DNA from: Escherichia coli
Lineage (GTDB): Bacteria; Pseudomonadota; Gammaproteobacteria; Enterobacterales; Enterobacteriaceae
Strand: one strand, 5' to 3'
Assembly (NCBI RefSeq): GCF_030013205.1
Contig: NZ_CP122648.1
Length of the DNA stretch: 64,000 nt
Within the stretch, counting starts at the first letter, position 1; each line of letters begins with the position of its first letter. The position numbers were made by a program. Positions 36,001 to 45,000 of the stretch are shown in pieces.

Positions 36001-39000
36001 AAGAAGAAAATTACCCTGGAGCCACAGTTTCTGGGCGACAAACACATCATACCGAATGAACGAACTATCAATAATCTGGTGATCGTCGAAGTAAAGCCTG
36101 AATTTCAGAGCGAATTTAGAAACATCGTCCTTCCTGAAATGGTCGAGTCGCTCAAAGTAGAGAAAGGCGTGTTAGCCATGTATGCCGGTACAGATTCAGA
36201 GACTCCAAAACGCTGGTATTTCTATGAGATTTACGCCAGTGAGGAGGATTATCAACTGCACCGACAAACGCTGCACTTCCTGGATTACCTCAGGCAAACG
36301 GCGCATATGAGCGCCAGGAAGGACGCAATCCCGGTAAAACCGGTATTTCTTCGTAACAAAGGCGGAATCAAACAGGAGCCGCAACGTTGACCAGTAAGGA
36401 TTAACATGAAAAGCGTACTTGCAGCAGCGGCTATGTCGCTTGTTATTTCTGATTTTGCCAATGCTGAGGAAACAAGAGGTAAAGCTATGATGAAAATAGA
36501 ACCGTCAGCGATTTCGGAAGCTGATATTCGTTCCGTCTCACCGGCTCTCGCGCGCTTTGGTCGCGAAGCTATTACTGAAGATCTGTGGACACGCGACGCC
36601 CTCTCACCGAGGGATCGTAGTGTGGTGACCGTCGCCATGCTGATTGCCCGCAACCAGCCTGCCGAGCTTAAGCACTATATTGACGTCGCTCTCGATAGCG
36701 GCGTGACGCCAGCGGAATTATCAGAAATCATTACCCATCTGGCGTTCTACTCAGGTTGGCCAAATGCAATGTCAGCCGTCAGCGTGATCAAAGCAGTATT
36801 TGAAACTCGTGGCGTCACGGCAGATGCACTTCCTGAAGCTTCTCCGGACCTGCTTCCTCTCAATCAGGAAGCAGAAAAGCAGCGTTCAGAGACAGTGGAA
36901 AAAAATGTTGGCCCAATATCTCCAGGCCTGGTTAAATTCACTGCTGATCCACTCTTCCTGGATCTCTGGCAAAGACCCGCGCTGAAACCCCGCGACAGAA
37001 GCCTGATTACGGTCAGCGCCTTAATCGCATCCGGACAGAGCGCGCAGATTGGCTATCACCTCAATAGAGCAATGGATAATGGACTTTCGGTGAGATCGTT
37101 ACCCAGGCCGCCTTCTATGCTGGCTGGCCAAACGCATTTACCGCTGCTCCGGTTGTGGGAGAGGTGCTAAACAATCGATCATCGAGTAAAAGGTAACATT
37201 ACTGAACACTAAAACCTGACGCACATCACAAAATTAGAACGATCAGTTCATGAACCAACAGACGTGACATCGAGTGATTTATGGACAGCGTTTAACACAG
37301 TTATGAACCAAAACTGAGTTCATAACTGTGAGTTTGAATCGTCATTTGATTAATATCCATTTAAAACAGTTTGTTATGCTGTTTCTGGTGCTGAAGTCAA
37401 TTATGTATATCCCTCAAACCCAGAATAGTTAAATGGAATTTGAGTGATGCGAAGCGATTTTACGGTCGTCGTTATTACTTCAGGGTTCCAGAACATAAAG
37501 CCTCTCCTCTTTCATGATTGGCCTGTGCATACCTGATATAGGCTGGCTGGTATGCAGGTTTGCCGTTTGCCGCATCTTCCCTGCGTTGAAGAGTCAGGCT
37601 GGCAAACCGCGTGCAAATGAACACCCCCTCTTTCCATCAACAATTCAGACAGCTTGCGGGAATGAGTCCACTCCGGTATCAGAAATGGCTACGCCTCAAT
37701 GAAGCCAGGCGACTGATGCTGAATGAACATTACGATGTCACCACTGCAGCCTATGCTGTCGGTTACGAAAGCTTATCCCATTTCAGTCGGGAATATTCGC
37801 GGATGTTTGGAGAGTCACCTAAGAGAGATATTACCAGGTTAAGAAAGTCTGTCGGTCAGCTTTAATAAACCCTGCACTTATCTGTTTAGAGCAATTCCGT
37901 GTTAGTTACACCAGGCAAACATTAACCATAGCTAATGTTTTATAGCCATATAAACCATTGGCCGCTCTTGACCTTTCCTGACACTTCCCTTGTTCGCAAT
38001 AATATTCTGTTTAGTCGCTGTTTATAAATAACATGCATAATGAAATCGTAATGTTATTTAGCGACATAAAATGTCTTTGCAAATACTCTCTACAACAAGT
38101 GCTGCAATAAACTTGTTGTGATTAGGTGTCCTTGTAATTTAAAGATATTATCGTTCTTCGTGAAATGTAATAACCCTGGAACTATATTCTCAGGGCAATA
38201 TCCCATCAAGAATGATTCTTGTTTTATAAGCAATAACAGAATGACTTAATTGTTAACTTTCTTTATTCAGCTACTTAAATATAAATTTTGGAGAATTATG
38301 AAACTCAAACATGTCGGTATGATTGTCGTTTCTGTGTTGGCGATGTCGTCTGCTGCGGTAAGCGCAGCCGAGGGTGATGAATCAGTAACGACCACTGTTA
38401 ATGGCGGTGTTATTCATTTTAAAGGTGAAGTGGTAAATGCCGCTTGTGCGATTGATTCAGAATCAATGAACCAAACGGTTGAGCTGGGTCAGGTCCGTTC
38501 TTCTCGTCTGGCTAAAGCGGGTGACCTCAGCTCCGCCGTTGGCTTCAATATCAAGCTGAATGATTGTGATACCAATGTTTCCAGTAATGCAGCTGTTGCA
38601 TTCCTGGGTACTACTGTCACCAGTAATGACGACACATTAGCGCTTCAGAGTTCAGCGGCAGGCTCTGCCCAAAATGTCGGTATTCAAATTTTGGACCGTA
38701 CGGGTGAGGTATTAATACTTGATGGTGCCACTTTTAGTGCTAAAACTGACTTGATTGATGGCACGAATATATTGCCGTTCCAGGCTAGATATATTGCTCT
38801 CGGGCAGTCAGTAGCTGGTACTGCAAACGCTGATGCGACCTTCAAAGTTCAATATCTATAATTCAATCTTAAGGTGGCTATACGTCATCTGAAATTGAAA
38901 CAGGGTGTGTGTGGCATGGCTACGCACACCCGAGCAATTCACCAATGTTCATCTCATTATTAATGAGGAATAGTTTGTGTTTTGGAGCGGTATGAAAAAA

Positions 39001-42000: not shown

Positions 42001-45000
42001 CTTAATTATCGTGGAGCTTACGGTAATACTAATGTCGGTTACAGTCGGAGTGGTGACAGCAGCCAGATTTATTACGGAATGAGTGGTGGGATTATTGCTC
42101 ATGCTGATGGCATCACCTTTGGTCAGCCGCTGGGCGACACAATGGTTCTGGTTAAGGCTCCTGGCGCTGATAATGTCAAAATAGAGAACCAGACCGGAAT
42201 TCATACCGACTGGCGTGGCTATGCCATATTACCATTTGCGACAGAATATAGAGAAAATCGTGTCGCTCTTAACGCGAATTCCCTTGCAGATAATGTTGAA
42301 CTGGATGAAACCGTTGTCACTGTCATCCCAACTCACGGTGCTATTGCCAGAGCAACATTTAATGCACAAATCGGCGGGAAAGTATTAATGACGTTGAAGT
42401 ACGGTAATAAGAGCGTTCCATTCGGTGCAATTGTCACACATGGTGAGAATAAAAATGGCAGCATTGTCGCGGAAAACGGTCAGGTTTATCTGACTGGACT
42501 TCCACAGTCAGGGAAATTACAGGTTTCATGGGGCAAAGATAAAAACTCAAACTGTATTGTCGAGTACAAGCTTCCTGAAGTTTCTCCTGGTACCTTACTG
42601 AACCAGCAGACAGCAATCTGTCGCTAAGGAACAATAGATTATGAAATACAATAACATTATTTTCCTCGGTTTATGTCTGGGGTTAACCACCTATTCTGCT
42701 TTATCTGCAGATAGCGTTATTAAAATTAGCGGGCGCGTCCTCGATTATGGCTGCACAGTCTCATCGGATTCGCTTAATTTTACCGTAGATCTCCAAAAAA
42801 ACAGTGCCAGACAATTTCCAACGACCGGTAGCACAAGTCCAGCCGTCCCTTTTCAGATTACGTTAAGTGAATGCAGTAAAGGGACAACGGGGGTTCGGGT
42901 TGCATTTAACGGTATTGAGGATGCAGAAAATAATACTCTGTTGAAACTGGATGAAGGAAGCAATACGGCCTCCGGTTTGGGTATAGAAATACTGGACGGA
43001 AATATGCGTCCGGTGAAATTGAATGACCTTCATGCCGGGATGCAGTGGATCCCACTGGTACCAGAACAGAACAATATTTTGCCTTACTCCGCTCGTCTGA
43101 AGTCAACTCAGAAGTCCGTCAATCCGGGACTGGTGAGGGCTTCGGCAACCTTTACCCTTGAATTTCAATAATCAGAGTCAGATATGAAAAGACTTCACAA
43201 GAGGTTCCTGTTAGCTACGTTTTGCGCGTTATTCACAGCAACTCTCCAGGCCGCCGATGTCACTATCACTGTTAATGGTCGGGTAGTCGCTAAACCCTGC
43301 ACTATTCAAACCAAAGAAGCTAACGTTAATCTCGAGGATCTTTATACGCGCAATCTGCAACAACCTGGTTCTGCATCAGGCTGGCACAATATTACTTTGT
43401 CATTTACCGATTGTCCGGTTGAAACAAGTGCAGTGACGGCAATCGTGACAGGTTCAACTGACAATACGGGTTATTACAAAAATGAAGGTACTGCCGAAAA
43501 TATTCAGATAGAGCTAAGGGATGACCAGGATGCGACGTTAAAAAATGGCGATAGCAAAACGGTTATTGTTGATGAGATCACTCGTAATGCACAGTTTCCA
43601 CTTAAGGCAAGAGCTATCACGGTGAATGGAAACGCAAGCCAGGGAACGATCGAGGCGCTAATCAATGTGATCTACACCTGGCAATAACGTCGATTCGATT
43701 TTCTTAGCCTCTTTTTAAATCAATTTTTTAACCTTAGGATATATCATGGGTAAAACAATAAGTATGAAGCTTCTGTTCGGTATTTATCTTCTATTAATGG
43801 CAGGCAAAGTTTTTGCCTTCAGTTGTAATGTCGATGGCGGGTCAAGTATTGGAGCAGGTACAACCTCTGTTTATGTTAATCTCGACCCTGTAATACAACC
43901 GGGCCAGAATCTGGTTGTAGACTTGTCTCAGCATATAAGTTGCTGGAATGATTATGGCGGCTGGTACGACACTGATCATATAAACCTGGTACAAGGCTCA
44001 GCTTTCGCAGGCTCTCTACAGTCATATAAAGGATCGCTGTACTGGAATAATGTGACCTACCCCTTCCCGTTGACGACAAATACTAATGTATTAGATATTG
44101 GTGATAAGACACCGATGCCATTACCGTTAAAACTCTATATTACCCCAGTCGGTGCGGCCGGTGGAGTTGTCATAAAAGCCGGGGAAGTTATTGCCCGTAT
44201 TCATATGTATAAAATTGCCACGTTAGGAAGCGGAAATCCGCGTAATTTTACGTGGAATATTATTTCAAATAACAGTGTTGTTATGCCAACAGGCGGTTGC
44301 ACCGTTGATAGTCGTAATGTCACCGTGAATCTCCCGGACTTTCCTGGAAGCGCAGAAATACCCCTTAGTGTATATTGCTCTAGCGAACAAAAGCTCTCAT
44401 TTTATCTTTCGGGTGCCACCACTGACAGTGCCCGACAAGTGTTTGCTAACACAGCACCAGATGCAACAAAAGCATCGGGCGTGGGTGTCTCTCTGATGCG
44501 TAATGGAAAAACACTGGCAACAGGAGAAAATGTCTCCCTGGGGACAGTAAATAAAAGCAAAGTACCTCTTGGTTTAAGCGCAACCTATGGACAAACAGGA
44601 AACAAGGTTGCAGCCGGAACCGTCCAGTCAGTCATTGGTGTCACTTTTATCTATGAATAATTGTGATTTTGACATTGGTCTATGCGCTCCATTCACGAAA
44701 ATTGCGCGGAAAATTATTTTGTGAAGGCTATTATCCTACATCTGTAAGAAAATCCGCGCACAATTGAAGCCAGAGTCTTATTTTTTATATTGAAAAATAT
44801 GTTAATTTAAACACTATGAGAGATGATGCTTAATTTATCGTATTTAATCTTTTGTTTAACGATAATAGATTAAAATAGAAAGAGAGTAGTCCCCTACTCT
44901 TATATATCCATGTTGACGATAATCCCTTTGTATATACTGTGCATCATCGCTATTACAAATCCTAATAATTCATTTCCACACAGGATAAGCAGATGAAGAA

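What the first reader, a model, noticed from the sequence alone, without database searches (positions are those of the whole stretch)
37870..44660. Complete six-gene chaperone-usher fimbrial operon where K-12 retains only remnants
Major subunit, chaperone, an 883-aa usher, two minor subunits and a FimH-like adhesin are all intact and co-linear, preceded by a ~430-bp AT-rich leader. In K-12, as I recall it, the usher (ydeT) is truncated and the upstream genes are missing. The adjacent AraC remnant (yneL-like) may be the decayed cognate regulator.
Basis: partly seen in the sequence, partly recalled or inferred. Interest (0 to 1): 0.35.

Follow-up and report, generated by a model that had tools for sequence, protein, structure and literature searches.

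The report
Intact F9 (Fml) fimbrial operon
This is an undamaged copy of the well-studied E. coli F9/Fml adhesive pilus operon, which about two thirds of complete E. coli genomes carry at full length and which K-12 has partly deleted, so it is real but ordinary.

Summary
Six co-linear, uninterrupted genes lie at 38298-44660: major subunit, PapD-type chaperone, 883-aa usher, FimF-like and FimG-like minor subunits, and a two-domain FimH-like adhesin. A 432-bp leader of 36% GC precedes them.

This is the known F9 (Fml/Yde) chaperone-usher operon of E. coli.
- It sits in the canonical position upstream of ydeP-safA-ydeO.
- The adhesin's lectin domain is 100% identical to the crystallised FmlH.
- The promoter mapped in CFT073 is present base for base.
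- At least 80% of the region lies in one place in 3553 of 5426 complete E. coli genomes.

The K-12 recollection is right. MG1655 lacks window 38121-41400 (3280 bp). It keeps the promoter, 73 nt of leader, usher codons 476-883 and ydeSRQ. 1373 genomes share that junction.

The idea that the AraC remnant (yneL) is the decayed cognate regulator is not supported. Its 302-aa relatives in Enterobacter and Klebsiella sit beside redox genes with no fimbrial genes nearby. A B2-type strain (its junction is the one I attribute to phylogroup B2) has an intact f9 operon without the remnant.

Novelty: already known. Interest: low.

The parts
37886..38297 (+). f9 regulatory leader. It is AT-rich (about 36% GC) and is the part shared with B2-type strains that lack the AraC remnant.
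   Evidence: Composition. Homology with B2-type genomes starts at query position 487/502 of 37400-44900, i.e. window 37886/37901. Homology with the Klebsiella AraC locus ends at 37877. No GATC site lies between 37245 and 39017.
38012..38041 (+). f9 promoter: -35 TAGTCG (38012-38017), 18-bp spacer, -10 CATAAT (38036-38041). The transcription start is the G at 38048, which gives a 250-nt 5' UTR (38048-38297).
   Evidence: Exact match to the promoter mapped by 5'-RACE in CFT073 (PMC3966885), found by pattern search. The -10 is invariant in four strains. The -35 is TAGTCG here and in the B2-type strain, and TAGTCA in O157 and K-12. Activity in this strain is inferred.
38298..38861 (+). F9 major subunit (pilin), 187 aa with a signal peptide.
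   Evidence: Pfam Fimbrial, 108 bits, full length. NCBIfam FimA equivalog, 174 bits against a cutoff of 140. RefSeq WP_001296758.1, the same accession as in O157:H7 EC4115.
38903..38931 (+). GC-rich 13-bp stem-loop 42 nt after the major subunit stop codon, inside a 362-bp gap before the chaperone gene.
   Evidence: Inverted repeat found. The 99-nt fold has an energy of -38.2 kcal/mol, z = -5.7, and 0 of 200 shuffles fold as well. No T-run follows it. Its role as an mRNA stabiliser or partial attenuator that raises the pilin-to-assembly-protein ratio is inferred by analogy with other pilus operons and was not tested.
39224..39934 (+). Periplasmic PapD/FimC-type chaperone, 236 aa.
   Evidence: Pfam PapD_N + PapD_C. 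It aligns end to end with FimC of PDB 6E14 (E = 1e-88). The cleft motifs ALGATRVIYP (Arg8) and NVKAIP (Lys112) are conserved.
39976..42627 (+). Outer-membrane usher, 883 aa.
   Evidence: Pfam PapC_N + Usher (666 bits, profile positions 1-549 of 549) + PapC_C. It aligns over residues 42-883 with mature FimD residues 2-833. No internal stops, and the same length as in O157 and the B2-type strain.
42641..43171 (+). ydeS, a FimF-like adaptor subunit, 176 aa.
   Evidence: NCBIfam FimF equivalog, 239 bits against a cutoff of 200. Pfam Fimbrial.
43184..43687 (+). ydeR, a FimG-like minor subunit, 167 aa.
   Evidence: NCBIfam FimG equivalog, 253 bits against a cutoff of 220. Pfam Fimbrial.
43746..44660 (+). 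ydeQ = FmlH (named FmlD in some PDB entries), the two-domain tip adhesin, 304 aa.
   Evidence: Residues 25-184 are 100% identical to the FmlH lectin domain of PDB 6AOW/6AOX/6AOY (E = 2e-107, alignment shown). Pfam FimH_man-bind, 260 bits, plus a pilin domain.
38121..41400 (.). The 3280-bp segment missing from K-12 MG1655 (1-bp junction overlap).
   Evidence: blastn of MG1655 and of a K-12-like genome against the window. The right end falls at usher codon 476, phase 0. A 401-bp probe across the K-12 junction is matched over at least 80% of its length in 1373 of 5426 genomes.
37599..37865 (+). Neighbour, not part of the operon: the C-terminal ~88-residue remnant of an AraC_N + HTH_18 regulator (yneL in K-12).
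   Evidence: Pfam HTH_18. RefSeq marks it 'missing N-terminus'.

Best explanation
The region is an intact copy of the E. coli F9 (also called Fml or Yde) chaperone-usher pilus operon, a paralogue of type 1 fimbriae.

How it most likely works:
1. A single sigma-70 promoter (38012-38041) starts transcription at 38048, producing a 250-nt AT-rich leader. H-NS binds this region and silences the operon at 37 C. Silencing relaxes at about 20-28 C.
2. The six products are exported by Sec. The FimC-like chaperone caps each subunit by donor-strand complementation in the periplasm.
3. The FimD-like usher polymerises subunits in the order adhesin, FimG-like, FimF-like, then many copies of the major pilin. 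This gives a rod tipped by the lectin FmlH.
4. FmlH binds terminal Gal/GalNAc glycans: Gal-beta1-3GlcNAc, and the TF and Tn antigens.
5. The stem-loop after the pilin gene probably raises the pilin-to-machinery ratio.

Shown here: gene content, intactness, purifying selection, identity of the lectin domain, exact presence of the mapped promoter, genomic position, and the K-12 deletion.

Taken from the literature on other strains: H-NS and temperature control, and glycan specificity.

Inferred: that this strain expresses the pilus, and the role of the hairpin.
For: - Six full-length domain architectures.
- End-to-end alignment of the chaperone with FimC and of the usher with FimD.
- The FimA, FimF and FimG equivalog cutoffs are passed.
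- The FmlH lectin domain is 100% identical to PDB 6AOW.
- No internal stops, gene lengths equal to those in O157 and the B2-type strain, and dN/dS of 0.00-0.40.
- Canonical neighbourhood upstream of ydeP-safA-ydeO-ydeN-ydeM.
- At least 80% of 37400-44900 is present in one place in 3553 of 5426 complete E. coli genomes, almost always on the chromosome. The few entries in the plasmid collection include records of chromosome size.
- Exact match to the CFT073 promoter mapped by 5'-RACE.
- Published work: H-NS binds the 251-bp promoter fragment, F9 is expressed at 20 C, and it binds Gal-beta1-3GlcNAc (PMC3966885). FmlH binds Gal/GalNAc/TF, and an FmlH deletion mutant has a competitive defect in mouse UTI (PMC5866590).
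Against: - Nothing in the sequence contradicts the identification.
- Expression in this particular strain was not tested. F9 is silent under standard laboratory conditions in the strains studied.
- The 3553/5426 figure measures DNA coverage, not ORF intactness, and the genome collection is biased towards clinical isolates.
- The hairpin has no T-tract, so it is not a classical terminator, and its role is conjecture.
Confidence: 0.96

Rival explanations
1. The AraC-family remnant just upstream (yneL-like, 37599-37865) is the decayed dedicated regulator of the f9 operon.
For: It lies directly next to the f9 promoter region, on the same strand. AraC-type activators are known for some other fimbrial operons (own knowledge: Rns/CfaD, AggR).
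Against: - Its closest relatives (88-91% identical over the remnant) in Enterobacter and Klebsiella are ~302-aa AraC_N + HTH_18 proteins. They are transcribed divergently from DUF2255 and other redox genes (a flavodoxin-like gene in Enterobacter), with no fimbrial genes within 10 kb.
- Window 37471-37596 still carries fragments of those Klebsiella neighbour genes. The remnant is therefore what is left of that foreign locus after a deletion of about 1.8 kb.
- Homology to that locus ends at 37877, upstream of the f9 promoter.
- A B2-type strain has an intact f9 operon without the remnant.
- The published survey found three different regulators in this position and no link to f9.
Confidence: 0.05
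2. The operon is a true type 1 (fim) fimbrial cluster, mannose-specific and phase-variable through an invertible promoter.
For: RefSeq labels the genes fimA/fimF/fimG in some strains, and the NCBIfam FimA/F/G equivalogs are passed. The adhesin matches the Pfam FimH mannose-binding domain. A 15-nt inverted repeat (37726-37740 / 38041-38055) brackets a 300-bp segment that contains the promoter.
Against: - The adhesin lectin domain is identical to FmlH, which binds Gal/GalNAc rather than mannose.
- There is no fimI and no fimB/fimE recombinase gene nearby.
- The locus is next to ydeP, not the fim locus.
- A probe built with the 330-bp segment inverted was matched over at least 80% in 0 of 5131 genomes.
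- The left arm of the repeat lies inside the AraC coding remnant and is absent from the B2-type strain.
- There are no GATC sites for a pap-type Dam/Lrp switch.
Confidence: 0.01
3. The operon is structurally intact but permanently cryptic in this strain, an evolutionary leftover on its way to loss.
For: It is lost or disrupted in a large minority of E. coli. 1373 of 5426 genomes share the K-12 deletion, and others carry IS insertions. [quoted passage not shown] H-NS silences it at 37 C.
Against: dN/dS is well below 1 for all six genes in comparisons across phylogroups. The promoter is conserved base for base with the strain in which expression and function were shown.
Confidence: 0.1

Closest known systems
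F9 / Fml / Yde fimbriae of E. coli (CFT073 c1931-c1936; O157:H7; adhesin FmlH, PDB 6AOW)
   Same: - Same six genes in the same order, at the same chromosomal site upstream of ydeP.
- The whole region is 97-99% identical at the DNA level.
- The lectin domain is identical to the crystallised FmlH.
- The mapped promoter is identical.
   Different: Only allelic differences: 97-100% protein identity to the O157 and B2-type alleles. The flank upstream of 37886 is of the type that carries an 8-kb redox gene cluster plus the AraC remnant.
Type 1 fimbriae (fimAICDFGH with the fimB/fimE switch)
   Same: Same architecture of chaperone, usher, FimF/FimG-like adaptors and a two-domain adhesin. The chaperone and usher align end to end with FimC and FimD. 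The full-length adhesin matches FimH at E = 3e-81.
   Different: - No fimI.
- No recombinases or invertible element.
- The lectin is specific for Gal/GalNAc, not mannose.
- Regulation is by H-NS and low temperature.
- The chromosomal locus is different.
K-12 ydeTSRQ remnant with yneL
   Same: The same locus. ydeS, ydeR, ydeQ and the last 408 usher codons are 97.9% identical at the DNA level and still open.
   Different: K-12 lacks 38121-41400: most of the leader, the pilin and chaperone genes, and usher codons 1-475. It also lacks the 8-kb cluster at 29684-37655.

Membership tests
F9 (Fml/Yde) fimbrial operon of E. coli | Chromosomal position between the hipBA/variable region and ydeP-safA-ydeO | tested here: met
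   ydeP, safA, ydeO, ydeN and ydeM follow directly downstream. hipBA lies at about 28-29.7 kb, upstream of an 8-kb insert. This matches the description in PMC3966885.
F9 (Fml/Yde) fimbrial operon of E. coli | [quoted passage not shown] | tested here: met
F9 (Fml/Yde) fimbrial operon of E. coli | The adhesin is FmlH | tested here: met
   Residues 25-184 are 100% identical to the PDB 6AOW FmlH lectin domain.
F9 (Fml/Yde) fimbrial operon of E. coli | The mapped f9 promoter: -35 TAGTCG, 18-bp spacer, -10 CATAAT, transcription start about 251 nt upstream of the ATG | tested here: met
   Exact match at 38012-38041. The G at 38048 is 250 nt upstream of the ATG at 38298.
F9 (Fml/Yde) fimbrial operon of E. 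coli | H-NS repression at 37 C and expression at about 20 C | not testable with these tools
   Known only from the literature for CFT073 and O157. The AT-rich leader is consistent with it.
F9 (Fml/Yde) fimbrial operon of E. coli | Binding of Gal-beta1-3GlcNAc, TF and Tn glycans | not testable with these tools
   Inferred from the identical lectin domain and published binding data.
Chaperone-usher pathway pilus (type 1-like clade) | PapD-like two-domain chaperone with the conserved Arg8 and Lys112 cleft residues | tested here: met
   PapD_N + PapD_C. The alignment to FimC shows the R in ALGATRVIYP and the K in NVKAIP conserved.
Chaperone-usher pathway pilus (type 1-like clade) | Usher with an N-terminal domain, a barrel/plug and C-terminal domains | tested here: met
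   PapC_N, Usher (profile positions 1-549 of 549) and PapC_C. It aligns with FimD over residues 42-883.
Type 1 fimbriae (fim) proper | Invertible fimS promoter element with fimB/fimE recombinases | tested here: not met
   No recombinase genes in the neighbourhood. The only candidate inverted repeat shows no inversion in 5131 genomes.
Type 1 fimbriae (fim) proper | Mannose-specific FimH adhesin | tested here: not met
   The best match is FmlH at 100% identity. FimH is only a paralogue (362 bits over the 160-residue lectin domain for FmlH, against 276 bits over the whole protein for FimH). FmlH binds Gal/GalNAc.
Fimbrial operon with a dedicated AraC-type regulator | The regulator gene co-occurs with the fimbrial operon across genomes | tested here: not met
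   Relatives of the remnant in Enterobacter and Klebsiella have no fimbrial neighbours. An intact f9 operon occurs without the remnant in a B2-type strain.

The most novel reading that the evidence does not exclude
The K-12-type deletion, shared by about a quarter of complete genomes, leaves the native f9 promoter and 73 nt of leader fused to usher codon 476. Downstream, ydeS, ydeR and the adhesin FmlH stay open. The orphan tip subunits could therefore still be made under H-NS and temperature control and be assembled by another usher such as FimD. In that case the 'remnant' would be a functional adhesin cassette rather than debris. The present window would then serve as the intact reference needed to test that.
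Probability: 0.07. Interest if true: 0.35.

Novelty: already known. Interest (0 to 1): 0.07.

Why it matters
It matters little as a discovery. F9/Fml pili are a characterised E. coli adhesin system, with a role in biofilm formation at low temperature, plant and bovine cell binding, and chronic urinary tract infection, and FmlH is a drug target. Finding an intact copy in one more strain is expected.

The useful results are housekeeping ones:
- exact gene and promoter coordinates in this window;
- the exact K-12 deletion end-points, and how often that deletion occurs in 5426 genomes;
- evidence that the yneL AraC remnant belongs to a different, decayed redox locus rather than to f9.

Tried and rejected
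- **Rfam scan of 37000-45200 at E <= 1.** The only hit was a chance OxyS match at 20 bits against a gathering score of 75. No known RNA element lies in the leader or in the gap between the pilin and chaperone genes.
- **Consensus promoter and terminator scan.** It found no more sites than shuffled sequence (14 against 17.8; 7 against 6.1) and missed the real, experimentally mapped promoter.
- **Pap-type Dam/Lrp switch.** No GATC site lies between 37245 and 39017.
- **fimS-like invertible element.** A 15-nt inverted repeat brackets the promoter, but a probe with the segment inverted found 0 of 5131 genomes in that orientation. The left arm lies in the AraC coding remnant, which the B2-type strain lacks.
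- **Plasmid or mobile origin.** There were only 7 hits in the plasmid collection, and several of those records are of chromosome size.
- **Intact E. coli copy of the AraC gene.** The protein search returned only fragments shorter than 145 aa. The full-length form had to be reconstructed across a frameshift in an Enterobacter contig.
- **Small ORFs in the 362-bp gap.** All are 58 aa or shorter and nothing supports them.
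Full report
**1. Observation**

The + strand between 38298 and 44660 carries six consecutive open reading frames without internal stops.
- 187-aa fimbrial subunit, 38298-38861. The mechanical ORF begins at TTG 38250. The ATG at 38298 follows a GGAGAA ribosome-binding site and is the RefSeq start.
- 236-aa chaperone, 39224-39934.
- 883-aa usher, 39976-42627.
- Two subunits of 176 aa (42641-43171) and 167 aa (43184-43687).
- 304-aa adhesin, 43746-44660.

Pfam finds complete domain sets in all six:
- Fimbrial in the subunits.
- PapD_N + PapD_C in the chaperone.
- PapC_N + Usher + PapC_C in the usher; the Usher match covers profile positions 1-549 of 549 at 666 bits.
- FimH_man-bind + Fimbrial in the adhesin.

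The stretch between the stop codon of the upstream AraC fragment and the first ATG is 432 bp (37866-38297), with GC of about 0.36 against 0.42-0.46 in the operon.

**2. Identity**

The window is 100% identical over 19.5 kb to the chromosome of the porcine ETEC strain ETEC4067. RefSeq annotates the six genes there as intact and names the last three ydeS, ydeR and ydeQ. They are followed by ydeP, safA, ydeO, ydeN and ydeM.

A megablast of 37400-44900 against 5426 complete E. coli genomes finds a match in 5396. A single place covers at least 80% of the query in 3553. Nearly all places are chromosomal, at 95-99% identity. The few entries in the plasmid collection include records of chromosome size.

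[quoted passage not shown] FimH is the next-best match. The chaperone aligns end to end with FimC, and the Arg8 and Lys112 cleft motifs are conserved. The usher aligns over residues 42-883 with mature FimD. NCBIfam places the three non-adhesin subunits above the FimA, FimF and FimG equivalog cutoffs.

This is the F9 (Fml/Yde) operon, a paralogue of type 1 fimbriae. Wurpel et al. 2014 describe it as six genes flanked by ydeP on the 3' side and by hipBA plus a variable region on the 5' side. [quoted passage not shown]

**3. Intactness and selection**

All six genes have the same length as in O157:H7 EC4115 and in the bloodstream isolate MS20658, whose upstream junction is the one I attribute to phylogroup B2. 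Protein identity to these two strains is 97-100%. Pairwise dN/dS is 0.00-0.40.

**4. Regulation**

The promoter mapped by 5'-RACE in CFT073 has a -35 of TAGTCG, an 18-bp spacer, a -10 of CATAAT, and a G start about 251 nt upstream of the ATG. It is present exactly at 38012-38041. A G at 38048 lies 250 nt before the ATG.

In a four-strain alignment the -10 is invariant. The -35 is TAGTCG here and in the B2-type strain, and TAGTCA in O157 and K-12.

The published data show that H-NS binds this fragment and represses the operon at 37 C. Pili appear at 20 C and mediate biofilm formation. I take this over as the most likely regulation here. It was not tested for this strain.

I found no evidence for other switch types:
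- No GATC site lies between 37245 and 39017.
- No recombinase genes are nearby.
- A 15-nt inverted repeat that happens to bracket the promoter is never found in the inverted configuration in 5131 genomes.

A strong 13-bp GC-rich stem-loop at 38903-38931 follows the pilin gene inside a 362-bp gap. The 99-nt fold has an energy of -38.2 kcal/mol and z = -5.7. It has no T-tract. I infer a role in differential mRNA stability or partial attenuation. This was not tested.

**5. K-12**

MG1655 aligns to window 37656-38120 and again from 41401 onwards, with a 1-bp overlap at the junction. A K-12-like genome gives the same result.

- K-12 therefore lacks 38121-41400 (3280 bp): most of the 5' UTR, the pilin and chaperone genes, and usher codons 1-475.
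- The break is in phase 0 at codon 476. The annotated ydeT begins at Met502.
- K-12 keeps the f9 promoter and 73 nt of leader.
- ydeS, ydeR and ydeQ remain open in K-12, with dN/dS of 0.05-0.30 against the window.
- A 401-bp probe across the K-12 junction is matched over at least 80% of its length in 1373 of 5426 genomes. The deletion is thus an old and common allele, not a laboratory artefact.

**6. The AraC remnant**

The fragment at 37599-37865 carries only an HTH_18 domain. RefSeq marks it as missing its N-terminus. K-12 yneL corresponds to its last part, from 37656.

Near-identical fragments (88-91%) occur in Enterobacter hormaechei and Klebsiella. There the gene is about 302 aa with an AraC_N (PF06719) sensor domain. 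It is transcribed divergently from a DUF2255 gene, which is flanked by a flavodoxin-like gene in Enterobacter. No fimbrial genes lie within 10 kb.

Window 37471-37515 and 37537-37596 are short pieces of the Klebsiella DUF2255 gene and its 204-aa neighbour. E. coli therefore retains the stump of that locus after a deletion of about 1.8 kb, which removed the AraC promoter and about 210 N-terminal residues.

Homology to those genera ends at 37877. Homology to the B2-type E. coli strain begins at 37886/37901, and that strain carries an intact f9 operon behind unrelated genes.

The remnant thus belongs to the variable upstream segment. In this window that segment also includes an 8-kb cluster of aldo/keto reductase, NAD(P)H oxidoreductase, quinol monooxygenase and carboxymuconolactone decarboxylase genes, which K-12 and O157 lack. 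From my own knowledge, AraC_N-type regulators such as YqhC typically control neighbouring aldehyde or redox enzymes. The 'decayed cognate regulator' idea is not supported, in line with the published statement that no evidence links these regulators to f9.

**7. Comparison and verdict**

Every sequence-testable defining feature of the F9 operon is met: position, gene order, adhesin identity and promoter. The functional features, H-NS and temperature control and Gal/GalNAc binding, can only be inferred from the literature.

It is not a type 1 fimbrial cluster proper. It has no fimI, no fimB/E, no invertible element and a different lectin.

The finding is correct but already known. Interest is low.

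The only reading with some novelty concerns the K-12-type allele rather than this window: its promoter-proximal fusion might still express the orphan tip subunits. I give that a low probability.

Noticed in passing
window 53261-54028: A 768-bp insertion absent from K-12 and O157 encodes InsA/InsB-like ORFs (91 and 167 aa, minus strand), so it looks like an IS1 copy. It interrupts the ABC transporter gene yddA, whose ORF ends at 53282 after 381 aa.
   Followed up: partly
window 29684-37655: An ~8-kb cluster lies between hipA and the AraC remnant. It encodes a type 1 glutamine amidotransferase-like protein, two aldo/keto reductases, amidohydrolase fragments, an NAD(P)H oxidoreductase, a quinol monooxygenase and a CMD-family protein. 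K-12 lacks it, and O157 lacks 29681-37427. A 27-bp stretch at its left edge (29654-29680) matches a Klebsiella locus exactly.
   Followed up: partly
window 36406-37196 and about 33245-33806: RefSeq flags the carboxymuconolactone decarboxylase family gene as frameshifted in the identical strain. The amidohydrolase is split into two small ORFs. The redox cluster is therefore itself partly decayed.
   Followed up: no
window 37471-37596: Two short fragments (45 and 60 bp, 91-93% identical) match the Klebsiella DUF2255 gene and a neighbouring 204-aa gene. They lie directly upstream of the AraC remnant, as relics of a locus that is otherwise absent from E. coli.
   Followed up: yes
window 22985-27777: The ECSE_1600-family autotransporter (yneO/ydeK in K-12) upstream of hipBA is split into ORFs of 157 and 1431 aa. 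It is probably a pseudogene here, as it is in K-12 and O157.
   Followed up: no
window 38092-38119: A perfect 9-bp inverted repeat (ACAACAAGT ... ACTTGTTGT) ends exactly at the left breakpoint of the K-12 deletion (38120/38121).
   Followed up: no
L004 (O157:H7 EC4115) 7788-8897 and 20529-22211: In O157:H7 EC4115, hipA is annotated as an N-terminally truncated pseudogene next to the f9 region, and ydeN has an internal stop.
   Followed up: no
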